A stretch of DNA of 64,000 nucleotides from a virus (IMGVR_UViG_3300037067_015585:1-64000); one strand, 5' to 3'; counted from the stretch's first letter, positions 6,478 to 25,705 are shown. Notes: generated by a model not told the origin, from the letters alone. Translations and numbers: made by a program.

Positions 6478-6483
6478 TTACTA

Positions 6484-7086: not shown

Positions 7087-7144
7087 AGCATACTCCTTGT
7101 ATAATGATTTACCTTCGGTTTATGTTACTGAAATACATAGATGC

Positions 7145-7942
7145 TCATTCGTCGTTTTTTGGCTTCTTCGGATTCTTACTGGTCTTTGCAATCCTTGCAC
7201 ATTCTTGAGCCATGAACGCCAATGGCAATCGGCTACTACTCTTCTTATTGTAAATCGATTCAATCATGTTTAAAAAGCCATCGATATTCGGCTTCAAATC
7301 ACGCATTGCGCGATTTACTTCGAAACGATGGAAGAATTGGTTGATATCGAATTCATCAACCAACAGCAACATGCGAATCGCAGTGACGAAAAGGGTGTTC
7401 GATGCATGATCGAACCCGGCAGCTTTGCATCGTTTGATAATATCAGCGATTTGCTGGGCATACTTCATTTTGGTAACAGTGAAGTCACCCCTCTTGAATT
7501 CTGACATGTCAGACTTGCCGGTCAAGATTGATACCGCACAACTTATAGTAACTCCGGTGTGGGTAACATAATCGGCGGCAATCTGATATTGCGCACTTTG
7601 TTTGTCGCCTAGACGGCAATATGACTCCAAATAGTCCCTCGTAGACCACGGGCGAGTTGCACCTTCCAATTCATGAATTGTTGCATTATCATTACAGATA
7701 ATATAAAAGACTGGTATACCCAATTCCTTAGCGGCAGTAAGCCGATGGTGTCCGGCTTTGATCTCAAGCTTGCCATGTGAATTCTTTGTGACATGTAATG
7801 GGTATGCTGGGATATACCCATGCTCACGCATCGATGCCATGAGCTTGTTAATTTTCGTAACGTCTCTGTTGAATTTCGATAATTCAAAGAGACCGTAATC
7901 TTTGGTTGCAGCGAGTTTCGGCGATAATGACTTCGGTTTCAT
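7145..7942 (-). CDS. ParB/Srx-like N-terminal domain protein
   Basis: NR.V...KL..SM...G...P..V....I.AGHHRL.AAKELG.PV..II motif. Confidence 0.8.
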   Translation of the reverse strand: MKPKSLSPKLAATKDYGLFELSKFNRDVTKINKLMASMREHGYIPAYPLHVTKNSHGKLEIKAGHHRLTAAKELGIPVFYIICNDNATIHELEGATRPWSTRDYLESYCRLGDKQSAQYQIAADYVTHTGVTISCAVSILTGKSDMSEFKRGDFTVTKMKYAQQIADIIKRCKAAGFDHASNTLFVTAIRMLLLVDEFDINQFFHRFEVNRAMRDLKPNIDGFLNMIESIYNKKSSSRLPLAFMAQECARIAKTSKNPKKPKNDE

Positions 7943-8421
7943 TTTCTATCCTTCCGGTTATTGTTAATCCATTTGACAACAATGTCAAATGCTTCATTCC
8001 TAAACTTATTATTCCTTGGTATTGGCTCCAGTTGTGTTATAGCACATCGTGCCGCCTGCATCGCATAATTTTGCGATTTTTTCCAATTAGTGTCAATTGG
8101 CGTATCGATATCAACCTCAGATGATGTGGTTGATCCTTTACCGTGTAATCTTGATCGAAACCTGTTGTGTTCAAAAAAAGCTGCGTTAGCTTCTTCGATT
8201 TGCGTCTCGGCATCAAGATTTGCAATCCGCGATGCACGCGTCGGAGACATACGGCCTTCATCGACGGCAGCAATTAGCTCTGGTGTACCGTTTTGTAATA
8301 TGTTCAAAGCGGCATGCAACAAGTTCGGTCGAGTTGGTGTACTATTCGGATCAATAAGACGCGCCCTACCATCAGCCAAAGCCATAGCACCAGTGTTGAT
8401 ATATGGACTATCGCTATTCAT
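7939..8421 (-). CDS. putative ParB-associated HTH-like DNA-binding protein
   Basis: GTPELIAAVDEGRMSPTRASRIA resembles the post-HTH segment of ParB-like proteins; ATGA-coupled to the ParB-like gene. Confidence 0.55.
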   Translation of the reverse strand: MNSDSPYINTGAMALADGRARLIDPNSTPTRPNLLHAALNILQNGTPELIAAVDEGRMSPTRASRIANLDAETQIEEANAAFFEHNRFRSRLHGKGSTTSSEVDIDTPIDTNWKKSQNYAMQAARCAITQLEPIPRNNKFRNEAFDIVVKWINNNRKDRK

Positions 8422-8454
8422 AATTATCCTTTCGAGTTATTGAGAAGCTGGCCG

Positions 8455-8483
8455 ATTATAGCACGACACAGTAGCACATTTAA
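8455..8483 (-). promoter_or_regulatory. promoter TTAAAT-N17-TATAAT with GTCGTGC immediately upstream of -10
   Basis: shares CGTGCTAT with three other intergenic sites. Confidence 0.6.
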
Positions 8484-8520
8484 TTAGCGACCTTATTGTA
8501 TCGATCCATCGAACAGGAAA

Positions 8521-10587
8521 TTATTTCGTTACACCATTGTATGGCCCCACTAGTGACAACGCTTGCATTTTATTAATATTATTGGTATATAACCAATTTT
8601 CCTGCATTGCCGATATCTTGCCACGTAGTGCCTTTGGTGAGAAATCAAATTGTGCGCTCGGTCCATTATTAAATATTCTTGCATTAAATCCTGCCACCAT
8701 CGCACCAATTATAAATGCACCGTGTGAGATTGACTTATTGGGTGAATATGGTTCGACAAGACTTTTCAAAGCGAGACTCGGCTCACAAAAACTGTTAATT
8801 TTGTGTGTTTTGCGTACATCAGCAAGCAATTTTGCAATGAATTTTATGTCGTCTGCACTATTAATTAACATATCAGTGTCATTTTTTGTGCGTTCGTCAC
8901 CGAAGCCATCAATATTGAGTGTGGGATATTTAGTTAGGACTTCGCAGATTTGATTGAGCAGCTTCTCTCTAGCTTTCTGTTTTTGCTTTTCCGTTGTGAC
9001 TGTCTTAATTGATAGTCTACAACATCCAGTGAACATCTTTGTTAGTGATTTACGTATTTTTTGTGGTTTTCTTACGACTTCGTCGTAAAATTCAGCATTT
9101 AATCCACTAGATTCAGCGGTACTAATCAAGAGTTGCATCCAGCGTTTATATGTCTCGTTCTCCAAGATACTATTAGGTGCTATTATAAAATTCCAAACAA
9201 ACAATACCTGGCCAGAACGACCTGCTGCATCTATTACAAGTATGCATAAATCTTGCCAAAATCTGGTGTTAGAATCAGCCAAACAAATAATTGAATCGTA
9301 TGATATTACTGACGGTTTGTGCCATAATTGTTGTATATGTAGGAATTCTGTATCAGGATAGGCATGAGCACCACTAGGAATAGGCTTATTGAGCACACTA
9401 CGATCAACATTATTATATGAATTAGGTCCGAATTTTATGCCACCGTCGATAAGATGCTTGTGCTCGTGCCATTCTCTACCACCAAGAGTCCAAAATTCAC
9501 GATTAGCGGAAAATCTCGTTAAATCATAATATCGTAGTACTTCCAATAAATAATCTCGATATTTATTTAGACCCTTATAATGGTCTGGTCTATTATTAAT
9601 CCCTAACTCGCGATACCAAAACCAATCGCGAACTCCTTCTGTGAATTCGGCGTCATATTGTGGGCTTTTGCTGTCGGTGAATCTCCTCAAACTCCAATAT
9701 AGTCGATATTCTATTGGATCTTTCGCTGTCACATTTGGCCTATCAACACCAGCTCTAACCATCTCTAATAGCTTATCTTTTATCTTTCTTTGCTTTTCAT
9801 CTTTGGTTTCGAGCCACAATGGCGATATTTTTCTAAGTTTATCTATAAAAACAGCATCATAATGCTCGCTTTTGTGATTTGTAAATTTATGAAGTTCATG
9901 ACTAAGTTTTTTGTTTGTCGACGGAATTGGTTTATCTGCACCACTTTCCGCTAATTGTAAAAGTTGTACCTTATATTCATCTGGCGTTATTCGCTTGGAA
10001 AACCAACTCGGAGCAAGACTACTAATTTCTGCTTTGAAAACAGGATCATAATTGCTTTTAGAATTCTTGCTGCAATATAGACAAAGAGCGCTAGCCAAAA
10101 CAGACTCGTCATGGCTGGCACGTTTTTGTTTCGGCCTTGGTTTACCACTTTTCGCCAATTCTATTAACTTGTGTTTTTTGATTAATACAGAATCTTTAAA
10201 CCACCCAGGAGCAAGTTTACGAATTTTATTGGCAAACTGTTCGTCTCGGCCTGGGCCATTATTTACATAGTTATTGAATGACTGCCCAAGCCTGCGTTCA
10301 ATGATATCATTAGAAGTGCTGCTTGGTCTCGGTGCCCCAGCAGCAGCTAGTGCCAATAATCTCTCACGCCGACTACTGCGTTCATGCCTACTACTCTGTA
10401 AACTCTTCCGCTCTTTCCAGTCTGTAAACCAACCAGGCTGTATGGTACGAATCTCAACATCAAATTCGGCATCATATGAGCTACCTCTATGAGTATAATT
10501 ATGTAACGCCTGTGCAAGTTTTCGCTCATCGCGATTATTACTTTTTCTATTTGGTTTTTTTACTGGTAAATATTCTGATATCATCAT
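8521..10587 (-). CDS. repeat protein: SEYLPV leader + 5 PDWF-type repeats + putative methyltransferase-like domain + wHTH-like domain
   Basis: repeats end in PGWF/PSWF/PLWL/RDWF; EFWTLGG..EW.E / YNNVDR / VISYD domain shared with both helicases; C-terminus paralogous to 4367..4813. Confidence 0.8.
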   Translation of the reverse strand: MMISEYLPVKKPNRKSNNRDERKLAQALHNYTHRGSSYDAEFDVEIRTIQPGWFTDWKERKSLQSSRHERSSRRERLLALAAAGAPRPSSTSNDIIERRLGQSFNNYVNNGPGRDEQFANKIRKLAPGWFKDSVLIKKHKLIELAKSGKPRPKQKRASHDESVLASALCLYCSKNSKSNYDPVFKAEISSLAPSWFSKRITPDEYKVQLLQLAESGADKPIPSTNKKLSHELHKFTNHKSEHYDAVFIDKLRKISPLWLETKDEKQRKIKDKLLEMVRAGVDRPNVTAKDPIEYRLYWSLRRFTDSKSPQYDAEFTEGVRDWFWYRELGINNRPDHYKGLNKYRDYLLEVLRYYDLTRFSANREFWTLGGREWHEHKHLIDGGIKFGPNSYNNVDRSVLNKPIPSGAHAYPDTEFLHIQQLWHKPSVISYDSIICLADSNTRFWQDLCILVIDAAGRSGQVLFVWNFIIAPNSILENETYKRWMQLLISTAESSGLNAEFYDEVVRKPQKIRKSLTKMFTGCCRLSIKTVTTEKQKQKAREKLLNQICEVLTKYPTLNIDGFGDERTKNDTDMLINSADDIKFIAKLLADVRKTHKINSFCEPSLALKSLVEPYSPNKSISHGAFIIGAMVAGFNARIFNNGPSAQFDFSPKALRGKISAMQENWLYTNNINKMQALSLVGPYNGVTK

Positions 10588-10598
10588 ATCTCTCGATA

Positions 10599-11924
10599 TT
10601 AGCTTTGGAACCAGTCTGGGCGAATAACACGAATCTGTTTAGTGAAGTCAGGATCAAAATGTCTGCCGCAAGTGTAATACGCCAACGCATGCCCAAGCTT
10701 TTTCTCAGCCTGATTTACCGATCTTTTGTTTGGTCGATTTGATCCACAAATAGCCATATCAAATAATTTCGCTTTAACAGCAGTACTTGTTGATATGAAC
10801 CATTCTGGCCTGATTGTATGAATTTGTTTATCAAAATCTGGATCATATCTAGCGTGATTCTTGTCGATATAATAGCACAACGCTGAGCCTAGTTTTCCAG
10901 AGCGTCTGGTAGGTCTTTTAGCCCCGCTCTTCGCTAATGTTATCAAATTTGCTTTATTTCTCTCAATTGCGTTCGCAAACCAATCTGGTCGAATAACACG
11001 CAACTGTTTATCAAAATTAAAGTCATAAATCTTGCTACGCTTGTTTGTGCAATAATAAAAAGTGATCAACATCCTCTTCTCTTCCATATCATCTGTTATA
11101 TATCTTGGCTTATCGGCTCCACTCTTAGCCAATTCTAACAATTTCAATTTCCTGATGTCTTTAAGGACCTCGAACCAATCTGGACGCAAGATGTGAATAC
11201 GCCTCGAGAAATCACGATCATACCGCTTACCATTCTGAGTAAGAGCACCAAGCAAATAACTTAACTTCTTTTCTTCTAGATCTTTAGAATATCGATCCGG
11301 TTTCTTGGCACCGCTAGCAGCGAGTTTAAGTAGAACATCCTTACGTAAGGCTACCTTGTCTTCAAACCAATCTGGCCGTATAAGCTGGAGTCGCTTAGTA
11401 AAATCAAGATCATACCCAGTTCCACCTTTTACTGTATAATCGATAAATCTATCGTACAATCTTCTCTCTAGTATATCAGAATGTAATCCTACCCCAGGTC
11501 TCGGTTTTCCAGTCTTCGCAAGCTCTAATATTTTATTTTTGTTTATAGCAGATCGATCAAACCAATCAGGGCGAAGTGCTCGAATTCGTACACAAAAATC
11601 TTGATCACCGGATCGATGCTTGTCGGTATATCCCTTTAATGCTACAGCCAATCTTTTTTCTTCACGGTTCTTAGATGAGCTACTTGGCCTTTTAGCTCCA
11701 CTACCAGCAAGTTCCATCAACTTTTTCTTATTTTCAATAGGTGTTGGTATTATAGTGGTAAACCAACCAGGTTGCAAGACACGAATCTCAGCATTGAATT
11801 CTGAATCATAACTTCCACTAAATTTATAGGTATAGTTCCGAAGCAACCGTGCAAGTTTTCGTTCCTCGCGATTCTTGCTAGTAATGCTTGGCCGCTTTAT
11901 TGGAAGATATTCAGACATTATCAT
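10599..11924 (-). CDS. repeat-only protein: SEYLPI leader + 7 PDWF-type repeats
   Basis: seven units ending in [QR]P[GDE]WF; ATGA-coupled to the upstream helicase. Confidence 0.85.
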   Translation of the reverse strand: MIMSEYLPIKRPSITSKNREERKLARLLRNYTYKFSGSYDSEFNAEIRVLQPGWFTTIIPTPIENKKKLMELAGSGAKRPSSSSKNREEKRLAVALKGYTDKHRSGDQDFCVRIRALRPDWFDRSAINKNKILELAKTGKPRPGVGLHSDILERRLYDRFIDYTVKGGTGYDLDFTKRLQLIRPDWFEDKVALRKDVLLKLAASGAKKPDRYSKDLEEKKLSYLLGALTQNGKRYDRDFSRRIHILRPDWFEVLKDIRKLKLLELAKSGADKPRYITDDMEEKRMLITFYYCTNKRSKIYDFNFDKQLRVIRPDWFANAIERNKANLITLAKSGAKRPTRRSGKLGSALCYYIDKNHARYDPDFDKQIHTIRPEWFISTSTAVKAKLFDMAICGSNRPNKRSVNQAEKKLGHALAYYTCGRHFDPDFTKQIRVIRPDWFQS

Positions 11925-14900
11925 CCAACTTTCAGTACCGAGTCGATTCTAGTTAGTTTGCAACATCCAGCAAGCATTGGTGTCTTTGATGTTGGTCGCT
12001 TAGTAATCTGCCCTTCTCCATAGAAATCAGCCTCCAATCCTTCTGATTCAGCAAATCCGTCTAGTAACTGTAGCCATTGATGATAAACACCCCTTTTGAT
12101 CGGATCATATCTAGTGTGTATTGTGTAGCCTTCCATAAAATTCCAAAAAAACAAGACACATCCAGACTTCTTGGCAGCGGTAATAGCAAGATAACACAAT
12201 TCCTGCCAATATCCAGTGCGAGATTTAACCATACCGATTGTCGCGTCATAGCTAATAACGCGTGGGTTTTTCCATTTACTCCATAAATCTTGGATAGATA
12301 AGAACTCGCGGTTCGGATGAGCACAAACTCCTTCTGGTGCCTTGTCGATTACACCTCTGTCAACATTATGATAAGCATCACGCCCAAATTTAATGCCAGC
12401 ATTAACAAGATGCTTAAGTTCATACCATTCACAACCACCAAGAGTCCAGAATTCATTATCGTAGAATTCGGTGAAGCCATAATAATTCAGAGCTTTAACT
12501 AAGAACTCGCGATATTCATTTTTACCGGCATACTTGCCACGCTGTGGCTTCTTACTGCGTGTAAACCAATCTGGACGAAGAAATCGGATCTGCCTATCAA
12601 AAGCCGAATCGTACAATCCACTGGGGCGATTAATATATTGGCTAAGAGCACTCCCAAGGCTTTTTTCCTCTAGATTTTTCGAACTCTGTTTTGGTTTTTT
12701 GGCTCCGCTCTTTGCCAATTCTAGTAATTTGGCTTTTTTTATGTCTGCTGTATTTTCGAACCAATCTGGACGAAACTCTCGGATTTGTTTGTCAAAAACG
12801 TGATCGTAACTTCCAATTTTTCCAATTTTTTGTATAGTATAATTGGTTAATGCAACTCCCAATTTTCTTTCTTCCAAATCTTTTGCGTGCTGGTTTGGGC
12901 GTTTTTCACCAGCTTCTGCTAACAACATTAACATATTCTTTTTTAGTATTGTTGTATCTTCAAACCAGTCTGGTCGAATGGAACGTATTTTGGTATCAAA
13001 AACAGGATCGTAAGTATCACTACTTTTGGTAGTGTAATCCGTTAGTGTGACTCCCAATTTCCTCTCTTCCAGATCTTTTGCGTGCTGGTTTGGGCGTTTG
13101 ATTCCGATCATGTTTGCTAATTCTATTAATTTCGTTTTATTTGTATTAGTGGTATCTTCAAACCAGTCTGGTCGAATGGAACGTATTTTGGTATCAAAAA
13201 CAGGATCGTAAGTACCATCAACTGTAGTATAATTGGTTAATGCAACTCCCAATTTTCTTTCTTCCAAATCTTTTGCGTGCTGGTTTGGGCGTTTTTCACC
13301 AGCTTCTGCTAACAACATTAACATATTCTTTTTTAGTTTCGAAGTTTTCTCGAACCATCTCGGACTAATAGAACGAATCTTGGTATCAAAATCAGAATCA
13401 TGTGAACAACTATTTTTGTTAGTATAATTGCACAACGCTCTACCGAGACGTTCTTCGGTGCGATCTCTACTACTGTTATTCGGCCTTTTTCCTCCACTTT
13501 TCGCCAATGCAATAAGTTTTCTTTTGTTTTCTCTTGCTGAATTTGCGTTGAATTTAAATAATAACTTCTCGACTTCATCGAAATTACTCATTCCGTTGAT
13601 GATCCCAAAAATATCTGTGATACCAATCACTTTCAGTTTTTTGATTTCCTCTTTGATCTCCGGATCATTCATAAACTCACTGAAAGACATCTTACTAAGT
13701 CGCCGATCGCGTTTACGAATAATATCTTCAAGCGCCTTACGATCATTCTTGGGGATGACTTCATTCTGCATCAATATGCTGATAGCTAAAATGGGGCTTA
13801 CCTCGATACCGCGTTTGGCATGAAGATCGTGGAATAATTTTATCAACTCATCAGCAGATGCACCAGAGGCTGATTCTCGCAAGACTCGTTGAAGAACATC
13901 ATTGTTCTCCAACATATTCACCTTTAATCTGAATTGTTCTCTTTCTTTGTCAACTACTGCACGATATCGCTGCGGTACCGTTAACATAAATGTGTCGGTA
14001 AAATCTAGACCACTACAGATAGCCTTAATTCTTATAGCAACCTGTAAATTGGCATTTTTGACCACATCCTGATCTTCGTCATCAAGACTAACCTCAAAGA
14101 TGACGACCCTAGATAGATTGGGCGACGGATGGTTTGGGCAATTTCTCTTTGATCGTAAAGCACGTCCCATACATCGCTGTACAAATCGCTGTAGAGAACC
14201 AGTTAATCGTGGGTTGAAGGTTTGGGCACATTCGACCCAATCCATACCCTCATCAAAAAGTTTGATGGCTATGATAATATCATAGCCTCTTGAAGAATTT
14301 GCCAGATCAGCGAGCCTATCGGAATGTACTTTCTTCCTGTTTGAAATAAGTATATCGCCGTCGTCTGATCCAAAATTGAGCACTCTAGCATCCTTGCATT
14401 TGTTTTGTAGAATTAGCTTAAGTGCAAATGCCTGCTTGGCACTATCGACATACATGATTGTCGGAAGCGGTTTCTTTTTATATTCATCGACGTATGCTTT
14501 TAATAATTCTGGGTAATTCATTGCGTCCAGGAGTTCTGGCTTATCAGATATATCATCGGTCTTCGACAATTGATCAAAATCTACCCTATTAACGGCATGA
14601 TAAAATCGCAGAAATACGCCGAAATCAGGGCAGCATCCCTCGTGGTGATGATCTTTCAACAGTCGTCTAAATCTAACAAACTCCTCTGACGTCGGCTGCC
14701 CTCCGTCACTACGGAAGTCTGTCGCCGTGAAAGCATGAACCTCAGAGCACCTGCTAACGCAATCTTTAAGAATAGAACCAAGAGAGTTTTCGTCCTTCAT
14801 ATCACTGTGATGGACTTCATCAACAAGCAAGACTACATTAGATAAGTCGATTGTTTTGTCTTTAAGAGCCAGTTTAAATGCTCGATAACTTGAGATGCGA

Positions 14901-15349: not shown

Positions 15350-15354
15350 GATTG

Positions 15355-15422
15355 GTTATAACGTGAAACTGTGTTGATGTTAATTTGCAGCTGGTCATAG
15401 CACGAAATGATATAAATGTTAA
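15355..15422 (-). promoter_or_regulatory. tandem promoters TTAACA-N17-TATGAC (15394-15422) and TTAACA-N17-TATAAC (15355-15383)
   Basis: duplicated ATGTTAATTTGC 12-mer; CGTGC before the distal -10; proximal -10 lies 5 nt from the ATG. Confidence 0.55.
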
Positions 15423-18129: not shown

Positions 18130-18602
18130 TTGTTAAACCAGTCTGGTCTTAGGGCACGAATCTTAGCATCAAACTTATCATCGTATGTCTTTCGACTTTT
18201 GTTTGTGTAATTGATCAATGCACGACCAAGATGATGCTTCGCGCTATTTGGCCGCGAAGAACCAGTTAAAGCCATTGCGAGCAGCTTTTGTTTTTTAACT
18301 GCTGCCATATCATCAAACCAATCCGGCCTTAATTTGCGGATTTCTGCGTCAAATTCAGAATCATAGCTGCCAGCATTTGAATAACGTTTTAATGCCGTCC
18401 CAAGAGTCTCGTTTTTACCAGGCCGCTTTTCTCCATTTGCGGCCATACACAATAAACGACATTTATTTTCAACAGCAGATTTACCAATACCTGTTTCGAT
18501 CATTTCGACCGACACACCACTAGTACGGAGTTGTTCAATCAAATTCTTTTGATAATCTGTTAACATATTACATTCTTCTATTTTGATTATTTCTTGAACC
18601 AA
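18126..18602 (-). CDS. short protein with 2 PDWF-type repeats (start probably MLTDYQ at 18566)
   Basis: two repeat units; N-terminus MLTDYQ...IETGIGKS resembles a truncated helicase Q-motif/Walker A. Confidence 0.75.
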   Translation of the reverse strand: MVQEIIKIEECNMLTDYQKNLIEQLRTSGVSVEMIETGIGKSAVENKCRLLCMAANGEKRPGKNETLGTALKRYSNAGSYDSEFDAEIRKLRPDWFDDMAAVKKQKLLAMALTGSSRPNSAKHHLGRALINYTNKSRKTYDDKFDAKIRALRPDWFNK

Positions 18603-19084
18603 TCAGATCGCATGGTGCGTACTTTCTTATCGAAATTCGCATCGTAATCCTTACACCTTTTGTCAGTAAATCTGATCAATGCACGTCCAAGATATTGTTC
18701 CTTGACGGCAGCATCATAAACTTCTTCGGCTAATTTGCGTTCCTTGGCCGAAGAAGTTTGAAGTGGATTCTTTTTATAATAGTTCCATTTCCTGCTGTTT
18801 GGTCGTGCAGATCCATCAGCCGCCATCTTCATCAATTCTTTTTTAATCACCGAAGCAGTCTTTGGTTTGGAACCGCCAAACCAATCTGGCCTCAAAAAAC
18901 GAATTTCCCTGTTAAAATTGACGTCGTATGGGCTGTTGCATCGGCAGTATCGTAGTAACGCCAGTTTAAACTCGTTCTTCTTTCTTGGCCTATCGGCCCC
19001 ATCTTTTGCAAGTTCGAGAAGCTTCTGCTTGTTCTGCTTTATAACGTTCTGGTCGTGCGGTTCTGGCTTCTTTTTCTTTGACAT
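18587..19084 (-). CDS. short protein with 2 PDWF-type repeats
   Basis: two repeat units; AAAGGGA RBS; first gene after the consensus promoter. Confidence 0.8.
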   Translation of the reverse strand: MSKKKKPEPHDQNVIKQNKQKLLELAKDGADRPRKKNEFKLALLRYCRCNSPYDVNFNREIRFLRPDWFGGSKPKTASVIKKELMKMAADGSARPNSRKWNYYKKNPLQTSSAKERKLAEEVYDAAVKEQYLGRALIRFTDKRCKDYDANFDKKVRTMRSDWFKK

Positions 19085-19105
19085 TTCATATCCCTTTATA
19101 AGTTA

Positions 19106-19133
19106 AATGCACCGGGGACGTCCCCGGTGCATT
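19106..19133. promoter_or_regulatory. perfect 28-bp GC-rich palindrome AATGCACCGGGGACGTCCCCGGTGCATT (operator or 5' hairpin)
   Basis: exact self-reverse-complement; overlaps the predicted TSS of the 19136-19164 promoter. Confidence 0.75.
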
Positions 19134-19135
19134 CC

Positions 19136-19164
19136 ATTATAACACGGCGAAAAATTGCTGTCAA
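19136..19164 (-). promoter_or_regulatory. consensus sigma70 promoter TTGACA-N17-TATAAT with extended -10 TG
   Basis: perfect consensus, intergenic, upstream of 18587..19084. Confidence 0.85.
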
Positions 19165-19197
19165 TACCACTAATGGGGTATTATATATCTAGTCCAT

Positions 19198-20439
19198 TTA
19201 AGCCTTCTGTAACTGCCTGTTAAACCACTCAGGACTAAGTGCACGAATTTCGACGTCGAAATCTAGATCATAACATTCGCTACTTTTTGATGTGTAGCTT
19301 GCCAAAGCCCAAAGAAGACGCTTTTCTGCTATATCTCCCGACCTACTTGGCTTTTTGACTCCTGATTTAGCCATTTCTAATAGTCTCTGTTTCTTTAAAG
19401 CCGTTTTTTCGAACCAATCAGGGCGAAGTGTGCGAATTTCGGCGTCGAATTCTGGATCATATTGCGTTTTGTTACTGTTTGTGTAGCGTGCAATAGCAGT
19501 GCCTAAATTTGTTAATTTACAAGATGGTCTCTCTTCTCCTTTTCTTGCCATTTCTAGTAATTTTTGTTTCTTTAAAGCAGACGAAGTTCTAAACATTGAG
19601 CCGTCTGGCTTTCTAATAAAAGTTTCGAACCAATCAGGGCGAAGTGTGCGAATTTCGGCGTCGAATTCTGGATCATAACTAGTTCGCGCATGACCACTAC
19701 GTGTATAGTTTTTCAATGCTATCGCAAGACGTGATTCTGATATTTCTAAAGGGCTTGATGGATGGTTAAAATTAGTTGGTCTTCCCTCTCCATTCCTAGC
19801 CATTTCTAATAGCTTTTGTTTTTTTGCTGCTACCATCTGCTTTTTTACTATTGTTGTTACAGAATTTTCAAACCAATCGTGGCGAAGTTTATGAACCTCT
19901 ATATCGAATTCTAGATCATAACAACTACTATTCTTATTAATACTGCGACTCAACACTCTATTTAAATGCTCTTCTGATTTCTCGTTTGGCTTTTTATCTC
20001 CATTCTTAGCCATTTCCAGTATTTTTTGTTTTTTTACAGCTGTTAAATTTGGTTTTGCAGCCCATTCTGGCCGTATTTCGCGAATCTGTCTATCAAATTC
20101 TGGATCATAGCTACTACTGTTTTTATGTATATAGCAGCACAACGCACCAGCAAGTTTTCTTTCCAAAACTTCTGACGGCCCAGATGGATGTGAAAGATTA
20201 AGCGGTTTTCTGGCTCCACTCTTAGCCATTTCTAATAGCTTTCGCTTTATAGGCGCTGATTTAATACGGCGAGCAAGCCAATGTGGTTGTAAAGCTAGAA
20301 TTTCCGCAGTAAATTCGACATCATAGCTTACACTATTCTCTGTAGTATATCTGCGTAACGATTCTGCAAGTTTTCGCTCTTTGTGGCTACTGCTGTTACG
20401 GCTTGGTCGTTTTACTGGCAAATATTCAGATTCTACCAT
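19198..20439 (-). CDS. repeat-only protein: SEYLPV leader + 6 PDWF-type repeats
   Basis: start MVESEYLPV at 20439; repeat consensus. Confidence 0.85.
   Translation of the reverse strand: MVESEYLPVKRPSRNSSSHKERKLAESLRRYTTENSVSYDVEFTAEILALQPHWLARRIKSAPIKRKLLEMAKSGARKPLNLSHPSGPSEVLERKLAGALCCYIHKNSSSYDPEFDRQIREIRPEWAAKPNLTAVKKQKILEMAKNGDKKPNEKSEEHLNRVLSRSINKNSSCYDLEFDIEVHKLRHDWFENSVTTIVKKQMVAAKKQKLLEMARNGEGRPTNFNHPSSPLEISESRLAIALKNYTRSGHARTSYDPEFDAEIRTLRPDWFETFIRKPDGSMFRTSSALKKQKLLEMARKGEERPSCKLTNLGTAIARYTNSNKTQYDPEFDAEIRTLRPDWFEKTALKKQRLLEMAKSGVKKPSRSGDIAEKRLLWALASYTSKSSECYDLDFDVEIRALSPEWFNRQLQKA
19407..19677. repeat. exact 55-bp intragenic duplication (19407-19461 = 19623-19677) encoding YDPEFDAEIRTLRPDWFE
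   Basis: nucleotide identity; offset 216 is in frame. Confidence 0.9.
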
Positions 20440-20461
20440 ATAATAAATCGTTGGCAAAGTA

Positions 20462-21262
20462 TTATGTATCTAAACCACTTGTAGCGGCAAGATCTAAACC
20501 GAGAGCCTCCTTATACGATTCTTTCCATCGCACTTTTGGCTCATTACTTAATTCAATGTAAACCTTTTTAACTGATTTATGAGTCTGGCCGTCCCTGATA
20601 CGTTTTATTTCTTCCTTTGATACTCCACTAACCCTCTTGCTAATCCGATTCATCTTTCCAATCCAAATGGAATCAGTCACAAAAGGCTCTATGATATCAA
20701 ATAGTTTTCGGACGTTTTCAACGTCAAGAAGAGGCTCACAGCTAATGCTTGTGGCGTAACCAGCCTCATGTGCAAATCGTAGTGATTTGAGCCGTTCCTT
20801 AAAATTTGGTGCGTCTGGTTCCCATATGCTCAAAATTCGATCATCCATACTACCTATACTAAACCGAAACAAGATTTTCTTGTGAAAAATCTCGAATCGA
20901 TTACAAATGCTTTTGATGCATTTTAGATGTGGCTTACTCACAATCAGTATCTCGTTGCCAGCCATCAGCAATTTCTCAATCACTTTCAAGCACGAATCAA
21001 GTACGTTTGGTGTAATGTCATGAGCAGTCGGAAACATAATGCGACCACCAGCAATCAATTTCCTATTTTTAGAAACTTCACCTATGCGAATGATAGGAGT
21101 TTTCCAGTCGCCCGCCGATTTGATTCGTCGAAATCGTATAGCTTGTGCTCTAGCATAGCAATAACGGCAATCATGCTCACATCCAGTCATACAATTCACA
21201 GATGCAACTGACCATTCCCTAGTTCCACTTATGCGTGTCTTCTCGTCATTTTGTTTAGCCAT
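20462..21262 (-). CDS. radical SAM protein (DUF5131/Gp37-Gp68- or SPL-like)
   Basis: N.MTGCEHDCRYCYA (CxxxCxxC), WEP.AP...ER, S.EP.L, WIGKMN; TAATG-coupled to the helicase stop. Confidence 0.8.
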   Translation of the reverse strand: MAKQNDEKTRISGTREWSVASVNCMTGCEHDCRYCYARAQAIRFRRIKSAGDWKTPIIRIGEVSKNRKLIAGGRIMFPTAHDITPNVLDSCLKVIEKLLMAGNEILIVSKPHLKCIKSICNRFEIFHKKILFRFSIGSMDDRILSIWEPDAPNFKERLKSLRFAHEAGYATSISCEPLLDVENVRKLFDIIEPFVTDSIWIGKMNRISKRVSGVSKEEIKRIRDGQTHKSVKKVYIELSNEPKVRWKESYKEALGLDLAATSGLDT

Positions 21263-24200
21263 TAAGCTGTTTTCTGTGCTGCTTGCACTAATGTGAGCTT
21301 GCAACATCCAGCAAGCATCGGTGTGTGTGATTTTTTACGTTGTGTGATTTGCCCGTCTTTGTAAAAATCAACTGAGATACCACTATGTTCAGCCAAATCT
21401 TCCATTATTTGTATCCAATTGTCATATAAATCTGTGTCTATTGTATTATACATCTTATTGGCGTATCCAACCATAAAATTCCAAACAATCAGCGCATTTC
21501 CTGATTTCTTTGCTGCAGATATACCGAGGTGGCATAGCTCTTGCCAAATACCAGTATTGGATTGAACTAAAGCGACGGTACTATCATACGATATGACGGC
21601 TGGCTTATTCCACAATCGATGAATATCAGAAAATTCTGTATTTGGATGGTGACATACAGATATATCTAATAATTCTTTCAATTCTTCTCGATCAACATTA
21701 TGATATGAAGTCGGTTTGAATGATATACCAGTCTTCACCAAATATCGGTATTCATGCCATTCCGATCCACCAAGAGTCCAAAATTCATGATCTGTTGTGA
21801 ATTTTGTGAATTTATAATAATTCAATACTTCCAACAAGAAATCGCGATATTTATTTGGACCAGCGTATCGATCACCATTCTTTCTATAAATAAACCAATC
21901 TGGTCGAAGTTCGTGGATTTGCCTATCAAATCCAATATCATAACATCGATGTTGCGGATCTGTATAATGATATAATGATCTCCCAAGGCTTGTGTGGGAT
22001 AATGGTCGTCTCGAATCTGTTTTAGCGAGCGACAAAAGCTCCGATTTTCTATTTATAACAGCACCAAACCAAGATGGTGCAAGCTTATTGATCTCATCAC
22101 AAAAAGCCTGGTCATAATAAGGGCCTTCGCTATTTGAAAAGCGGCAAAACCATATTGCAAGAGTCCTCATCTTGCGATCGTGAGAGGTCTTTCTAGGTTG
22201 TTCTGATTTATTTTTAGCAATCTGTAGTAATTCTCGTTTCTTCTTTCTGGCGACATTAATAGATCTACTATCGAACCAGTCTGGACGCAGCTTCTTGAGT
22301 TCATTATGAAATTCTAGATTATATCCACGATTGTTCTTATTAATATAGCTACTTAGAGCCATGCCGAGAGGTGTATTTTGACACGGCCTATCACCGCCAT
22401 CTCTAGCTATTTTTATAATTTTCTTTCTTTTATCCGGTGCATAATTAACGAACCATTGTGGAGCAATAACACGCAACTCTTTATCAATCCAAGGAATATG
22501 CTTATGCATCAGCATCGCCATACTTTTCTCTTCTTGGTTGCGCATACTAGGCTTATTTAGGCCAGATTTGGCTCTATCTATTAGCTTCTTACCGGTTTCT
22601 TCGATCGTTTTGACGAACCACCGAGGCGCAAGAGTTCTAATTTTATGATCAAAGTCAGGATCATATATTTTGTTTTTTGGATTAGTATAACTTCCGAGCG
22701 CAACGGCTAATGCATTTCTGTGCTTGTGATTAGTTGTCGGACGTTTTTCACCATTGCGAGCCATCTCTAACAATCTATCCTTCTTTTCGATTGCTGTATT
22801 TATAAACCACGCAGGGGCTGCAAGGCGAATCTCATGCATAAAATCTTGATTAATTCGACAATAATTATTCATTACAACAGCCAGCCGACGCATGTTGGCG
22901 TCATCAGACCCAGTACTAGGACGCTCAGCACCGCTGTAAGCTAGTCGTAGCAGCTCTTTTCTATTCTCTTCTGCAGAGTCAACGAACCAATGTGGTGCCA
23001 AAAAACGTACCTTCTCAGTAAAATCTCGATCGTAAGTGTTAGCTTTTGGATCGATATAACGGCAAAACTTTGCCCACAATCGTTTTTCCTCGTCAGTAGA
23101 ATGCCAATTGTTATTGTTAGTTGGTCGGCGTATTCCACGCTTAGCCATAGACAATAATTTTTTCTTGTTTTCTAATGCTGTATTAATAAACCATTGTGGG
23201 GCTAAACGTCGTACTTTCTTGTCGAAAATAGATCCACGATGTGTCGAATTTGTGAATTTCGATAGCACAGATGCTAATGCACGTATATGGGTGTCATCAC
23301 TATTTTGTAATGGTCGTTCACCGCCACTTCTCGCCAAATCAATAATCTCATGTTTTTTCTTTGCCAGCTTATCTTCAAACCACGACGGTGCCATAGCGTG
23401 AATTTTTATATCAAATTCATGATCGTATGTATTGGAATGCACACAAGTATAATTTACTAATGCAGTTGCAAGTCGGCGTTCCTCAGAATCTGGATTATTG
23501 ATGTGCTTGTTTGACGGTCTATCTGCACCGTTCTTAGCCAAAATAAATAATTGCTCTTTATTGTGATCTGCTGAATTTCTAGTATAATCAACCAGCATCC
23601 TCGCTATTACATCGAGGTCATTCCGACCACTGAGAATTCCAACAAAATCAGAAACACCAATTACTCTAAGCTTAGCAATTTCTTCTGCGTATTCTGCGAC
23701 GAATCCAGCGAACGATCTTATTTCAAGATTCTTATCTCGAAGTCTTATGGCCTCTTTGAGATCGATCACATCAGCTTTGTCGATTACACCAGTTTGCATC
23801 AGCAATCCTGTAACAACATCACCGCTAAGTTCGATTCCTTTTGAAGCATATAAATCGTGACACAAAATTATCAATTCTGCGGCAGACGCACCTGTTGTTG
23901 CTTTATATAGAAGCTTCTGTAAAATTTCGGTATTAATAGATACATTCGATTTTGTTCTCAATCTGGTTCGTTCAGATTCAAACCTGTGCCGATGCTTTCC
24001 TGGCAGTTCTAATATGAAAGTATCGGTGAAATCGAGGCCCTCACATATCGCCTTCAAGACGATAGCCATTGGTAGGAATGCCTTCGTAACTTCATCTCTG
24101 TCATGATCATTCAAACTGATTTCAAATATTACGACTCTTGAGTAAAACGGCGACACATGTAATTTCCGTTTTCGCCGTAGTGTCCGTCCTATGCACCTTT

Positions 24201-25329
24201 GCATGAAGAGTTGAAGTGAGCTTGTTACTCTAGGTGAGAATGTCTGTGCACATTCTGCCCAATCAACTCCCTCGTTGCAAAGCTTGATCGATATTACAGC
24301 ATCAATATCTAGTGGCATATCAGACAGGTGTGTAAATTTAATCTTGCACAACTTACCATTATCTGATACTAACGCAATACCGTCGTCAGAGCCAAGATTC
24401 AAGATCTTAAGATTTGGTAGTTTTACTAACAACATTCTCTGTAATGCGTTTGCCTGCTTCGCATTATCGACATACATCATAGTCGGCAGCGGATTTTTCT
24501 CATATTCATCTACATAGGCTTCTAATAAAGCCTTCGGATCACCTATGTTCTTGCCGTTGGCCATCTTTTCAAAATCAACTTTGTTTACACTGTGGTAGAA
24601 TCTAGCAAATACTCCGAAATCGGGGCAAAATCCCTCAGAATAATGCTGCGCCAGTGTACGCCGATATTTATGAAAATCTTTTGGTACTGGACAACCACCG
24701 TCAGTACGAAAATCTGTAGCTGTAAAGCAATGAACTTCACTGCATTTTTTATTACAAGTTCTCAATATCGATCCGAGATGACTAGCATCTTTCTCGACAT
24801 CACTATGATGGACTTCATCGACAAGCAGAACAACATCAGAAACATTCGCACCAGTATCCAGAGCCATTTTAAAAGCTCTGTAAGTAGCGACATAGATTGA
24901 ATTGTCTGGACCGCTCAAAAATTGTTTTAATGCTTTTGTTTTATGTTTCTTTGGCTCTTCAACTATTCCACCATGTGGAACGACATATTCACGGTTGCTA
25001 CCTTTTGCACAGAATCTTGAATGTGCTACATATTTGCGAAAATTATGATTGATTCCAAGCATTGGCGTTATGATGACTGTCTTCTTACCTTTTTCAGACG
25101 ACAGAGCGGCATAACTTAACATTATTGAAGACTTACCAGAACCAGTCGGAGATTCAGTGAGCGTATGTCGATTTTTCGACAGATGATCTAAGATGATGTC
25201 GTTCTGAAATTGCCACAGCGTTATCGTCTTGACTGTCCTATTGCCCAAAACGATCGTCTTCACAGGCTTATCACCAGCCAAGACACGATTCTTTACGACA
25301 ATCGTTTTCTGATCTAATCCCATAATCAT
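21262..25329 (-). CDS. SF2 helicase + 9 PDWF-type repeats + putative methyltransferase-like C-terminal domain (paralog of 11921..15349)
   Basis: ESPTGSGKS, LLVDEVHH, FTATDFR, LCNEGVD, QRCIGRTLR; repeats; EFWTLGG.EW.E / YHNVDR / VISYD / TPMLAGCCKL. Confidence 0.85.
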   Translation of the reverse strand: MIMGLDQKTIVVKNRVLAGDKPVKTIVLGNRTVKTITLWQFQNDIILDHLSKNRHTLTESPTGSGKSSIMLSYAALSSEKGKKTVIITPMLGINHNFRKYVAHSRFCAKGSNREYVVPHGGIVEEPKKHKTKALKQFLSGPDNSIYVATYRAFKMALDTGANVSDVVLLVDEVHHSDVEKDASHLGSILRTCNKKCSEVHCFTATDFRTDGGCPVPKDFHKYRRTLAQHYSEGFCPDFGVFARFYHSVNKVDFEKMANGKNIGDPKALLEAYVDEYEKNPLPTMMYVDNAKQANALQRMLLVKLPNLKILNLGSDDGIALVSDNGKLCKIKFTHLSDMPLDIDAVISIKLCNEGVDWAECAQTFSPRVTSSLQLFMQRCIGRTLRRKRKLHVSPFYSRVVIFEISLNDHDRDEVTKAFLPMAIVLKAICEGLDFTDTFILELPGKHRHRFESERTRLRTKSNVSINTEILQKLLYKATTGASAAELIILCHDLYASKGIELSGDVVTGLLMQTGVIDKADVIDLKEAIRLRDKNLEIRSFAGFVAEYAEEIAKLRVIGVSDFVGILSGRNDLDVIARMLVDYTRNSADHNKEQLFILAKNGADRPSNKHINNPDSEERRLATALVNYTCVHSNTYDHEFDIKIHAMAPSWFEDKLAKKKHEIIDLARSGGERPLQNSDDTHIRALASVLSKFTNSTHRGSIFDKKVRRLAPQWFINTALENKKKLLSMAKRGIRRPTNNNNWHSTDEEKRLWAKFCRYIDPKANTYDRDFTEKVRFLAPHWFVDSAEENRKELLRLAYSGAERPSTGSDDANMRRLAVVMNNYCRINQDFMHEIRLAAPAWFINTAIEKKDRLLEMARNGEKRPTTNHKHRNALAVALGSYTNPKNKIYDPDFDHKIRTLAPRWFVKTIEETGKKLIDRAKSGLNKPSMRNQEEKSMAMLMHKHIPWIDKELRVIAPQWFVNYAPDKRKKIIKIARDGGDRPCQNTPLGMALSSYINKNNRGYNLEFHNELKKLRPDWFDSRSINVARKKKRELLQIAKNKSEQPRKTSHDRKMRTLAIWFCRFSNSEGPYYDQAFCDEINKLAPSWFGAVINRKSELLSLAKTDSRRPLSHTSLGRSLYHYTDPQHRCYDIGFDRQIHELRPDWFIYRKNGDRYAGPNKYRDFLLEVLNYYKFTKFTTDHEFWTLGGSEWHEYRYLVKTGISFKPTSYHNVDREELKELLDISVCHHPNTEFSDIHRLWNKPAVISYDSTVALVQSNTGIWQELCHLGISAAKKSGNALIVWNFMVGYANKMYNTIDTDLYDNWIQIMEDLAEHSGISVDFYKDGQITQRKKSHTPMLAGCCKLTLVQAAQKTA

Positions 25330-25370
25330 CCCATCACAGAGGTATAAACGAATATAAACTCAGACCGTCT

Positions 25371-25399
25371 ATTATAGCACGACGAGTGTATACTATTAA
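25371..25399 (-). promoter_or_regulatory. promoter TTAATA-N17-TATAAT with GTCGTGC before -10
   Basis: intergenic, upstream of the 1355-aa helicase; shared motif. Confidence 0.65.
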
Positions 25400-25478
25400 T
25401 TCTTCACTTAGTTGTCGATATCGGTACTAAGTCGGGCAAATTAAGAGATTACTGTCGTTTCACCAACAACCAGTAACC

Positions 25479-25703: not shown

Positions 25704-25705
25704 TT

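What the first reader, a model, noticed from the sequence alone, without database searches (positions are those of the whole stretch)
7145..25399. Candidate new system: 17-kb locus of modular repeat proteins with SF2 helicase-MTase-like fusions, a radical SAM enzyme and ParB-like genes
Seen: nine near-contiguous minus-strand ORFs (plus an outlier at 28601..29158) carry about 51 copies of a ~58-70 aa unit, KKxKLLExAxxGxxRPxxxSxxxxERxLGxALxxYT...YDxxFDxxIRxLRPDWF. Counts are 5,7,5,7,7,2,2,6,9,1. Two ORFs are helicase-repeats-C-domain fusions, one is repeats-C-domain-wHTH-like, and the rest are repeat-only. Several genes are translationally coupled (ATGA/TAATG). A radical-SAM gene is coupled to one helicase, and a ParB-like/HTH pair follows the array. 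Known: tandem ~60-aa helicase-associated (HA, PF03457) domains follow SF2 helicases and are thought to bind nucleic acid. The RPxxxSxxxxExxLG core resembles them, but the YD..FD...PDWF end differs. Inference: a diversifying repertoire of modular DNA/RNA readers that targets a translocating, base-modifying machine. Possible roles are phage DNA protection, anti-defence, or attack on host or competitor DNA.
Basis: partly seen in the sequence, partly recalled or inferred. Interest (0 to 1): 0.92.

Follow-up and report, generated by a model that had tools for sequence, protein, structure and literature searches.

The report
Phage helicase–repeat–methylase-fold gene family
A large T4-like phage from groundwater carries 51 copies of a fast-evolving, uncatalogued variant of the "helicase-associated" (HA) three-helix module in ten genes. 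Two of these genes join a helicase motor to a new methyltransferase-fold domain, and the neighbouring radical-SAM and ParB-like genes are not conserved partners.

Summary
A profile of the unit finds 51 copies in the 234-kb phage record, all at 9.6-28.9 kb on the minus strand, in ten ORFs (5,7,5,7,7,2,2,6,9,1).

The unit is a divergent branch of the Pfam HA domain (PF03457). No window unit hits Pfam. One strong family member passes the HA cut-off. The profile also reaches a canonical helicase-HA-methyltransferase protein, and hhalign gives 86% probability.

The shared C-terminal domain is a rare, uncatalogued family. It has a confident class I SAM-methyltransferase fold (Z 12-14).

Relatives carry helicase, repeat array and this domain either fused or as adjacent genes, so these three probably work together.

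The radical-SAM gene and the ParB-like pair are not part of the module. Complete relatives with the module lack both. Phages with the radical-SAM gene lack the repeats.

Between orthologues the arrays are 31-44% identical, while the flanking helicase and C-domain are 68-83% identical. Unit numbers also differ.

Best reading: an ATP-driven nucleic-acid motor with a rapidly changing HA-type binding array and a methyltransferase-fold effector, plus accessory repeat-only paralogues. Substrate and role are unknown.

This scan has noted the same kind of module before on other DNA, a 528-kb salt-lake phage.

Verdict: a new variant of a known kind, of moderate interest.

The parts
21262..25329 (-). 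Fusion protein of 1355 aa. It has an SF2 DExH helicase (about aa 1-580), nine HA-like units (aa 584-1146) and a methyltransferase-fold C-domain (aa 1146-1348). It is a paralogue of the 11921-15349 fusion and was not found in relatives G001 and G002.
   Evidence: Pfam ResIII/DEAD. Motifs GSGKS, DEVHH, TAT and QRCIGR read. Nine A1 hits. C-domain alignment. Helicase 49% identical to the other fusion.
20462..21262 (-). Radical-SAM-like gene with the motif CEHDCRYC. Its start most likely lies in a TAATG overlap with the stop of the upstream gene. It is a neighbour, not a conserved part of the module.
   Evidence: Pfam Radical_SAM E 9.6e-5, below the cut-off. Weak NCBIfam hits to rSAM_mob_pairB, PA0069 and SPL. 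phrog_13321. Junction read. No co-occurrence with the module.
19198..20439 (-). Repeat-only protein with a leader half-unit plus five full units (six in all). Its real start is the ATG at 20439 (MVESEYLPVKRPS).
19106..19164 (-). The only 12/12 sigma-70-like promoter in the locus (TTGACA-17-TATAAT with a TG extension). It is followed by a 28-bp GC-rich perfect palindrome, in the 113-nt gap before ORF 18587-19084. It probably starts the second transcription unit.
   Evidence: The total number of promoter-like sites is no more than in shuffled sequence, so only this perfect site is noted.
18587..19084 (-). Small repeat protein of 165 aa with two units. The second unit has an insertion of about 30 aa after helix 1.
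   Evidence: Homologue in L002 is 49% identical.
18126..18602 (-). Small repeat protein with two units, preceded by an unpaired helix-1-like segment (YQKNLIEQLRTSG). Homologues lie upstream of the fusion gene in G001 and G002.
16816..18129 (-). Repeat-only protein of 437 aa, with a leader half-unit plus six units.
   Evidence: L002 homologue is 43% identical.
15419..16816 (-). Repeat-only protein of 465 aa, with a leader half-unit plus six units.
11921..15349 (-). Fusion protein of 1142 aa. It has an SF2 DExH helicase, five HA-like units (aa 602-929) and a methyltransferase-fold C-domain (aa 931-1135). It is the orthologue of the single fusion gene in related jumbo phages. It contains exact internal DNA duplications.
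   Evidence: Pfam ResIII/DEAD. phrog_16 E 4e-25. Orthology: helicase 68-70% and C-domain 73% identical to L001/L002. Duplications, also seen as assembly breaks. C-domain model pLDDT 92, pTM 0.90.
10599..11924 (-). Repeat-only protein of 441 aa, with a leader half-unit plus six units. This is the protein that was modelled.
   Evidence: AF2 pLDDT 93, pTM 0.60. Each unit has three helices plus a short PDWF helix. 106 homologues.
8521..10587 (-). Protein of 688 aa. It has a leader half-unit, three full units and a degenerate fifth unit, then a methyltransferase-fold C-domain (aa 331-527) and a 143-aa tail of unknown fold. It has no helicase.
   Evidence: Homologue P0043 has the same architecture. 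The tail has no Pfam hit.
28601..29158 (-). Outlying 185-aa ORF with a single full unit (aa 92-157).
   Evidence: A1 hit at E 3.9e-26.
7145..8421 (-). ParB-like gene (7145-7942) and an overlapping 160-aa gene of unknown function (7939-8421). They are neighbours, not conserved parts of the module.
   Evidence: phrog_12305 E 5e-19. Pfam ParB_N is below threshold. Absent from G001 and G002. No relatives in viral contigs.

Best explanation
The locus is a lineage-specific expansion of a phage gene module at a conserved genome position. It lies between the LemA/TPM genes and the capsid region of a T4-like jumbo phage.

The module has three linked parts:
1. An SF2 DExH helicase or translocase.
2. A tandem array of basic three-helix units of about 63 aa. 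These units are a divergent, uncatalogued branch of the helicase-associated (HA, PF03457) domain.
3. A 200-aa domain of a rare new family with a class I SAM-methyltransferase fold.

The proposed mechanism is inferred, not shown. The HA-like array holds a nucleic acid. DNA is the more likely ligand, by analogy with the solved HA domain. The helicase moves the enzyme along the nucleic acid with ATP. The methyltransferase-fold domain then modifies it.

The repeat-only paralogues are accessory binders of the same kind of ligand, possibly alternative partners of the motor. The arrays change quickly, in sequence, in unit number and by recombination between units, while the enzymatic domains stay conserved. 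This points to changing binding targets.

The radical-SAM gene and the ParB-like pair are independent neighbours.
For: Shown:
- 51 units lie in ten ORFs and nowhere else in the record.
- Each unit is modelled as three helices plus a short PDWF helix, with pLDDT 93.
- The repeat proteins are basic, with pI 9.3-10.2 and net charge +7 to +44. The unit has conserved K/R positions.

Link to HA:
- Family member P0148 (E 3.6e-114 to the unit profile) passes the Pfam HA gathering score, 29.3 against 28.4 bits.
- P0077 has a sub-threshold HA hit, and NCBI names it an HA-domain protein.
- The unit profile hits P0207, a canonical Helicase_C + HA x5-6 + Methyltransf_8 protein, at E 5e-4 over 5.8 billion sequences.
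- hhalign of the unit profile against P0207's HA units gives 85.7% probability and E 5e-6, over the core G..RP..S.N..E..LG.
- The best named Atlas clusters are HA proteins, with 178-189 of 256 features shared.

C-domain:
- The AF2 model has pLDDT 92 and pTM 0.90.
- Foldseek E is 5e-6 and every match in the 50-row list shown is a SAM-dependent methyltransferase or aminopropyltransferase, or a ribosome-assembly entry with such a subunit.
- VIA-align gives Z 12-14 over 160-179 residues.
- The best named Atlas shape matches are FtsJ/TlyA RNA methyltransferases, TM 0.60-0.66.
- Polar residues are conserved at the canonical cofactor and catalytic positions: LGG after beta1, D67 at the end of beta2, D105 in beta4, N140 in beta5.

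Functional linkage:
- The three parts are fused in this window, in L001, L002 and P0108.
- They are split in L003: a 994-aa protein with N-terminal repeats and Pfam ResIII, a free 236-aa C-domain gene, and repeat-only genes of 4 and 13 units.
- They are split in L022: helicase with 6 units, followed by an overlapping free C-domain gene at E 1.8e-52.
- They are split in L025: three repeat-only genes plus a separate helicase.
- The module sits at the same genome position in G001 and G002.

Fast array evolution:
- Orthologous fusions are 68-83% identical in the helicase and 73-83% in the C-domain, but only 31-44% in the array. Unit numbers are 5, 8, 8 and 7.
- Exact duplications between units exist at the DNA level.

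The title of the paper on NMR structure 2kta says the HA domain binds DNA (reference 64 of PMC12191111).
Against: - No window unit matches Pfam HA, even at E 10.
- The structural match to the solved HA domain 2kta is weak: Z 3.7, rmsd 4.0 over 66 residues. It is not separable from other three-helix bundles.
- Nucleic-acid binding, ATPase activity, SAM binding and methyl transfer are all untested.
- The glycine loop is LGG, not GxGxG. The FtsJ K-D-K-E tetrad is not evident. The C-domain could therefore be inactive or act on another substrate.
- Three of eight related loci show no detectable C-domain next to the helicase-repeat gene.
- Free-standing C-domain genes also occur without a nearby helicase.
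- Whether the ligand is DNA or RNA is open. The nearest named fold neighbours are mostly RNA methyltransferases.
Confidence: 0.6

Rival explanations
1. The whole 17-18 kb block is one new multi-gene system: helicase fusions, repeat proteins, radical-SAM enzyme and the ParB-like/HTH pair. In it, radical-SAM and methyltransferase chemistry are aimed at DNA by the repeat readers.
For: The genes are contiguous and co-oriented, and several are translationally coupled, including the radical-SAM start in a TAATG overlap. A single low-quality contig joint in the source sample brackets the whole block, 7100 to 25455. This hints that the block may vary as one unit.
Against: G001 and G002 are 99-100% complete and carry the module but have no radical-SAM or ParB homologue. 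Seventeen loci with radical-SAM homologues have none of the other parts within 10 kb, and they share no conserved neighbour. Five radical-SAM-bearing phage records have no repeats at all. The ParB-like gene has no close relative in viral contigs. The contig joint has only 30 letters on one side, below the tool's own limit.
Confidence: 0.06
2. The arrays are sequence-programmable readers in the manner of TALE, PUF or PPR proteins or tandem Myb domains. Each unit reads a few bases through variable positions on helices 2 and 3, and the ten genes give a repertoire of specificities.
For: The hydrophobic scaffold is fixed and the surface positions are highly variable, on helix 2 (columns 52, 55, 56), on helix 3 (columns 70, 71, 74, 78) and in the loops. 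Arrays diverge much faster than the flanking domains, and unit number varies. Recombination between units is seen. The unit weakly resembles HTH and Myb-type three-helix bundles.
Against: Variability is spread over many surface and loop positions, as in any helical repeat. There is no small set of code positions. No target sequence is known. The global arrangement of the array is uncertain, with pTM 0.60. No binding data exist.
Confidence: 0.1
3. Detachable tails. The five repeat-only proteins begin with a half-unit that lacks helix 1. This half-unit docks in trans onto an unpaired helix-1 segment of another protein, here the small protein at 18126-18602. Arrays would then assemble combinatorially, or attach to the motor.
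For: Five genes share the half-unit leader (family D4). ORF 18126-18602 and its L001/L002 homologues carry one to two helix-1-like segments with no following helices. The idea comes from earlier scan note e1-5401914 on another phage.
Against: Truncated terminal repeats are common caps of repeat proteins. Both helicases here already carry complete arrays. The orphan segments were identified by eye and by regex only.
Confidence: 0.1
4. The repeats are protein-protein scaffolds, or the C-domain is a non-catalytic or non-nucleic-acid methyltransferase-fold domain. The module would then not modify nucleic acid.
For: The whole-array model resembles ARM and HEAT solenoids only generically. The motif I loop is non-canonical and no Pfam methyltransferase model hits. 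Fold neighbours include small-molecule O-methyltransferases and spermine synthase.
Against: The arrays are strongly basic. They are homologous to HA, and the paper on the HA domain's solved structure reports DNA binding in its title. They are consistently fused or adjacent to a nucleic-acid motor. Polar residues are conserved at the cofactor site across 30 diverse members.
Confidence: 0.15

Closest known systems
HA, helicase-associated domain (Pfam PF03457; NMR structure 2kta of Bacteroides vulgatus BVU_0683 residues 627-691)
   Same: A three-helix unit of about 60-70 aa, found in tandem arrays C-terminal to SF2 helicases. The shared core is G..RP..S.N..E..LG. One family member passes the Pfam cut-off. 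hhalign gives 86% probability. 2kta aligns over a whole unit.
   Different: None of the 51 units here is recognised by Pfam. The conserved Trp residues of canonical HA (W...LG.W...W) are replaced. The unit ends in a distinctive YD..FD..IR.LRPDWF helix 3 plus short helix. Many members are repeat-only proteins that start with a half-unit.
Canonical helicase-HA-methyltransferase proteins (for example metagenomic P0207: Helicase_C + 5-6 HA + Methyltransf_8)
   Same: The same order of parts: SF2 motor, HA array, C-terminal class I methyltransferase-fold domain.
   Different: P0207's methyltransferase is a recognised Pfam family (Rrp8-like, 101 bits). The C-domain here hits no Pfam model and belongs to a family of only 31 clusters in 1.84 billion representatives. 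Both are uncharacterised experimentally, as far as the literature search showed.
Class I SAM-dependent methyltransferases, nearest the FtsJ/RlmE/TlyA and PH1915/RlmM-type RNA methyltransferases
   Same: A Rossmann-like seven-strand fold, with Z 12-14 and 160-179 residues aligned. Atlas TM is 0.60-0.66 to FtsJ-family clusters. An acidic residue ends beta2, and a VISYDS motif in beta4 resembles the FtsJ motif IV.
   Different: Sequence identity is 13% or less. The loop is LGG instead of GxGxG. No K-D-K-E tetrad is apparent, with an invariant Asn where the second Lys would lie. Activity and substrate are unknown.
Helicase + methyltransferase-fold + split HA-repeat module of a 528-kb salt-lake phage
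   Same: By those notes' description, the same three parts, a shared N-terminal leader on the repeat-only genes, and fused forms in related phages.
   Different: Here the parts are mostly fused, duplicated (two helicase fusions plus one helicase-less fusion) and expanded to 51 units. I could not compare sequences with that record.
TALE, PUF, PPR and tandem Myb arrays
   Same: Tandem helical modules with a fixed scaffold and variable surface. Unit number changes rapidly.
   Different: This is an analogy only. There is no homology, no defined code positions and no known target.

Membership tests
HA domain (Pfam PF03457) | Match to the Pfam HA model at or above the gathering score (28.4 bits) | tested here: not met
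   For the window's own units there is no hit. 45 units scanned at E up to 10 gave none. A six-frame search of G000-G002 at E up to 1 gave none. However, family member P0148 scores 29.3 bits and P0077 scores 24.2 bits. The family touches the model only through its half-unit leaders.
HA domain (Pfam PF03457) | Profile-level homology to canonical HA units | tested here: met
   The A1 profile hits the canonical HA protein P0207 at E 5e-4 over 5.8 billion sequences, and on each of its six units locally. hhalign of A1 against A6 gives 85.7% probability and E 5.4e-6 over 26 core columns. The strength is moderate, not overwhelming.
HA domain (Pfam PF03457) | Three-helix fold like the solved HA domain 2kta | tested here: inconclusive
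   The AF2 units have three helices. VIA-align to 2kta gives Z 3.7, rmsd 4.0 and 66 of 74 residues over one whole unit. Many unrelated three-helix bundles score the same.
HA domain (Pfam PF03457) | Tandem arrays attached to SF2 helicases | tested here: met
   Two fusions are in the window. About 17 helicase + repeat proteins occur among the homologues.
Class I SAM-dependent methyltransferase | Rossmann-like methyltransferase fold | tested here: met
   The model has pLDDT 92 and pTM 0.90. Foldseek E is 5e-6 with 100 matches at E <= 0.001. VIA Z is 12-14.
Class I SAM-dependent methyltransferase | Cofactor-binding motifs: glycine-rich loop after beta1 and an acidic residue at the end of beta2 | tested here: inconclusive
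   L40-G41-G42 is nearly invariant but is not GxGxG. D67 (25 Asp and 2 Glu of 30) lies at the end of predicted beta2. The positions were assigned from predicted secondary structure, not from a residue-level superposition.
Class I SAM-dependent methyltransferase | SAM binding and methyl transfer | not testable with these tools
   Needs biochemistry.
FtsJ/RrmJ 2'-O-ribose RNA methyltransferases | K-D-K-E catalytic tetrad and a Pfam FtsJ match | tested here: inconclusive
   No member hits Pfam FtsJ. Only the Asp (D105) has an obvious counterpart, and N140 is invariant where the second Lys is expected. No residue-level superposition was made. Not filed as a member.
SF2 DExH helicase | Walker A, DExH, motif III and motif VI, plus Pfam helicase models | tested here: met
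   GSGKT/GSGKS, DEVHH, TAT and Q..GR..R were read in both fusions. ResIII scores 38-42 bits and DEAD 34-37 bits, both over their cut-offs. phrog_16 E is 4e-25. Helicase_C is not detected by Pfam in the window copies.
Radical SAM superfamily (ORF 20462-21262) | CxxxCxxC cluster motif and a Pfam Radical_SAM match | tested here: inconclusive
   The motif CEHDCRYC is present. Pfam gives 23 bits against a 29.5 cut-off. NCBIfam hits are weak, best E 3e-10 and far below their cut-offs.
One multi-gene system including the radical-SAM and ParB-like genes | Co-occurrence of all parts in relatives | tested here: not met
   Searches show a double dissociation between the module and the radical-SAM gene. 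The ParB-like gene is found only here.

The most novel reading that the evidence does not exclude
The HA-like arrays are a natural, rapidly re-assorting set of modular sequence readers. Each three-helix unit would contact a few bases. The arrays, partly through detachable repeat-only proteins that dock by their half-unit leaders, would aim a helicase-coupled enzyme of a new methyltransferase-fold family at chosen sites on phage or host nucleic acid.
Probability: 0.1. Interest if true: 0.9.

Novelty: new variant of a known kind. Interest (0 to 1): 0.55.

Why it matters
The HA domain is widespread in bacteria, giant viruses, phages and some eukaryotes, but it has essentially no functional literature. 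The paper search found only the NMR structure note.

This locus gives a compact natural experiment, for three reasons:
- One phage holds ten paralogues with 51 units.
- Its orthologues show that the arrays evolve several times faster than the motor and the effector.
- Gene fusion and fission tie the array to a helicase and to a previously uncatalogued methyltransferase-fold family.

If the arrays bind nucleic acid with unit-wise specificity, they would be a new class of modular reader. If the C-domain is active, it defines a new phage nucleic-acid-modifying enzyme family.

The work also corrects the picture of the locus. The radical-SAM and ParB-like genes should not be annotated as parts of this module.

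Tried and rejected
- Megablast of the locus and the capsid region, and tblastn of a repeat protein, against 50,697 phage records found no match.
- The unit profile against PDB sequences gave nothing meaningful.
- Foldseek of the whole 441-aa array gave only generic ARM/HEAT-like rows at TM about 0.1.
- The C-domain profile against PDB sequences gave nothing. Pfam on all 30 C-domain members gave nothing.
- NCBIfam on the fusions showed no TcmP or other partner family.
- The ORFs of about 200 aa that are translationally coupled upstream of the helicase-repeat genes in L021 and L024 look collinear with the C-domain by eye. hhalign gives E 0.28 and 0.95, and Pfam gives nothing. They are not counted as C-domains.
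- A genome-contig scan with the Bdellovibrio-labelled homologue P0092 found nothing. A scan with a window protein found only one MAG contig. The subfamily therefore appears essentially viral or metagenomic, but these scans only find close relatives.
- The helicase core has only three near-length homologues and no PDB relative below E 0.02.
- No RNA holder is listed among the sequencing runs, so nothing can be said about expression.
- Joints between units in the laid contigs have sides of 20-50 letters. They were treated as assembly-graph cross-links between repeats, not as evidence of recombinants.
- The HA NMR paper (PMC3637686) is not held. Only its title, as cited in PMC12191111, was used.
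- Searches were input slips.

Full report
**Context.** The window is bases 1-64000 of a 234,376-bp IMG/VR virus record that CheckV rates 64% complete. It is a tailed phage. PHROGs finds a major head protein (E 1e-78), a portal and a large terminase at 32-49 kb. The closest relatives found are complete jumbo phages of 364 and 388 kb. The DNA comes from a groundwater metagenome, and identical pieces occur in landfill metagenomes of two other studies.

**Observation.** Ten minus-strand ORFs between 8.5 and 29.2 kb carry the repeat.
- A regex count and unit extraction gave 5,7,5,7,7,2,2,6,9,1 units.
- An HMM of 45 full units (A1) finds 51 matches in the whole record. All lie at 9628-28876 on the minus strand, with E from 3e-29 to 2e-11.
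- Five repeat-bearing genes (four repeat-only genes and the repeat + C-domain gene 8521-10587) start with the same half-unit, which lacks helix 1 (DNA family D4).
- ATGA and TAATG overlaps join several genes.
- The only perfect sigma-70-like promoter lies in the 113-nt gap at 19.1 kb and is followed by a 28-bp palindrome.

**What the unit is.**
- No unit hits Pfam, even at E 10. The Pfam HA model finds nothing in six-frame searches of this phage or its two relatives.
- The family itself is real and broad in metagenomes. There are 106 near-length homologues and 93 longer ones, many on contigs over 100 kb.
- Several lines tie it to HA (PF03457):
  - P0148, a strong member (E 3.6e-114), passes the HA gathering score at 29.3 against 28.4 bits.
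  - P0077 has a 24-bit HA hit, and NCBI names it an HA-domain protein.
  - The unit profile reaches P0207, a canonical Helicase_C + HA + Methyltransf_8 protein, at E 5e-4 over 5.8 billion sequences, and locally on each of its six HA units.
  - hhalign of the unit profile against P0207's HA units gives 85.7% probability and E 5e-6 over the core G..RP..S.N..E..LG.
  - The best named ESM Atlas clusters are all HA proteins, with 178-189 of 256 features shared.
- AlphaFold models the 441-aa repeat-only protein at pLDDT 93. Each unit has three helices and a short PDWF helix. The pTM of 0.60 leaves the overall path of the array uncertain.
- The solved HA domain 2kta aligns over a whole unit, but only at Z 3.7, so structure neither adds nor subtracts much.

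I conclude that the repeat is a divergent, uncatalogued HA subfamily. The window's own units fail the formal Pfam test.

**The C-domain.**
- Three paralogues, about 50% identical, end the two helicase fusions and follow the repeats in ORF 8521-10587.
- An exhaustive HMMER search of 1.84 billion representatives finds only 31 clusters. Most are free-standing proteins of about 200 aa.
- Pfam and PDB sequence searches are blank.
- The AlphaFold model (pLDDT 92, pTM 0.90) has a class I SAM-methyltransferase fold:
  - Foldseek E is 5e-6 with 100 matches at E <= 0.001.
  - VIA-align Z is 12-14 over 160-179 residues.
  - Atlas shape matches to FtsJ/TlyA clusters have TM 0.60-0.66.
- Conserved polar residues sit where the cofactor and substrate sites are expected: LGG, D67, E85/F86, D105-S-T and N140.
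- The glycine loop is atypical, and the FtsJ tetrad is not apparent. I therefore file it only as a methyltransferase-fold domain of a new family.

**What belongs together.** In relatives the three parts appear in different fusion states.
- L001 and L002 carry a small repeat protein, one further repeat-only protein (L002 only), and then one helicase-repeat-C-domain fusion.
- L003 carries a 994-aa protein with N-terminal repeats and Pfam ResIII, a free 236-aa C-domain gene, and repeat-only genes with 4 and 13 units.
- L022 carries a helicase with 6 units, followed at a 4-nt overlap by a free C-domain gene (E 1.8e-52).
- L025 carries three repeat-only genes and a separate helicase.
- Three further loci have helicase + repeats without a detectable C-domain.
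- The module sits at the same genomic position in G001 and G002, flanked by LemA/TPM homologues that are 62-84% identical.

This fusion and fission pattern is good evidence that helicase, array and C-domain act together.

The radical-SAM gene and the ParB-like pair are different.
- Both are absent from the complete genomes G001 and G002.
- Seventeen viral loci with radical-SAM homologues (39-64% identity) have none of the other parts within 10 kb, and they share no conserved neighbour.
- Five whole radical-SAM-bearing phage records, one of 527 kb, have no repeats. The same search rang in G000-G002 as a positive control.
- The ParB-like gene has no close relative in viral contigs.

These genes are neighbours, not parts of the module.

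**Evolution.**
- The 11921-15349 fusion is the orthologue of the single fusion in relatives. The 21262-25329 fusion is a more distant paralogue, 49% identical in the helicase.
- Among orthologues the helicase is 68-83% identical and the C-domain 73-83%, but the array only 31-44%. Unit numbers are 5, 8, 8 and 7. L001 and L002 both have 8 units yet are only 42% identical in the array.
- Most units are 60-75% identical at the DNA level. A few exact duplications between units exist: a 113-nt exact core within the 204-nt pair at 12835/13225, and 55 nt at 19407/19623. They are also visible as assembly breaks.
- Variable positions lie on the surfaces of helices 2 and 3 and in the loops, on a fixed hydrophobic scaffold.
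- The proteins are strongly basic.

**Mechanism.** The best-supported reading is a nucleic-acid motor (SF2 DExH) that carries a rapidly evolving HA-type binding array and a methyltransferase-fold effector, with repeat-only paralogues as accessory binders.
- Shown: the parts, their folds, their linkage and their evolutionary rates.
- Inferred: binding, translocation, methyl transfer, and whether the substrate is DNA or RNA.
- The HA NMR paper's title reports DNA binding (cited in PMC12191111). The nearest named methyltransferase neighbours are mostly RNA enzymes, so the substrate is open.
- The TALE-like code and the detachable-tail idea remain possible but untested. The second comes from earlier scan note e1-5401914, and orphan helix-1 segments are seen here.

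**Novelty and score.** The literature search found no functional work on HA arrays in phages. The scan itself has already described the same kind of module in a 528-kb salt-lake phage. This is a new variant of a known kind: a divergent HA subfamily, a new methyltransferase-fold family and an unusually large expansion. It is not a categorically new system, and not the 17-kb system proposed. Interest 0.55.

Noticed in passing
window 7100 and 25455: In the source-sample run X1, one contig (depth 17) joins 7100 to 25455, skipping the whole 18.3-kb block. Variant letters of a second strain are seen at 7030-7063 and 25496-25575. A co-occurring strain may lack or replace the block.
   Followed up: partly
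window 5701-7086: A LemA-family gene (Pfam E 2e-56) and a TPM-domain gene with an N-terminal methylation motif sit in this phage. They are conserved at 62-84% identity next to the module in the related jumbo phages G001 and G002.
   Followed up: partly
window 30513-32324: A 603-aa ORF combines HTH and homing-endonuclease-like N-terminal parts with a C-terminal Mom-like DNA-modification domain (phrog_1384, E 7e-26), just behind the capsid gene. A 618-aa homologue sits between the capsid gene and the helicase-repeat gene in L022.
   Followed up: no
window 19106-19164: A perfect extended sigma-70 promoter is followed directly by a 28-bp GC-rich perfect palindrome (ATGCACCGGGGACGTCCCCGGTGCAT) with no U tract. 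It could be an operator or a 5' RNA hairpin for the second half of the locus.
   Followed up: partly
L021:9396-9998 and L024:9348-10001: ORFs of about 200 aa are translationally coupled upstream of helicase-repeat genes in two distant contigs. By eye they show a methyltransferase-like motif order (GYWTLC, FGVDW, LVYLDVT, VLLVNAM) collinear with the C-domain. hhalign (E 0.28 and 0.95) and Pfam do not support homology. They may be a second, more distant methyltransferase-fold partner family.
   Followed up: partly
L004-L020 (radical-SAM homologues): The radical-SAM gene family (phrog_13321, weakly SPL/PA0069-like) occurs in at least 17 viral contigs with no conserved neighbour. It looks like a stand-alone, mobile phage gene of unknown function.
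   Followed up: partly
window 26472-26870: A small HNH/endonuclease VII-like ORF (phrog_3322, E 3e-12) lies just beyond the locus. A 60% identical homologue is in L001.
   Followed up: no
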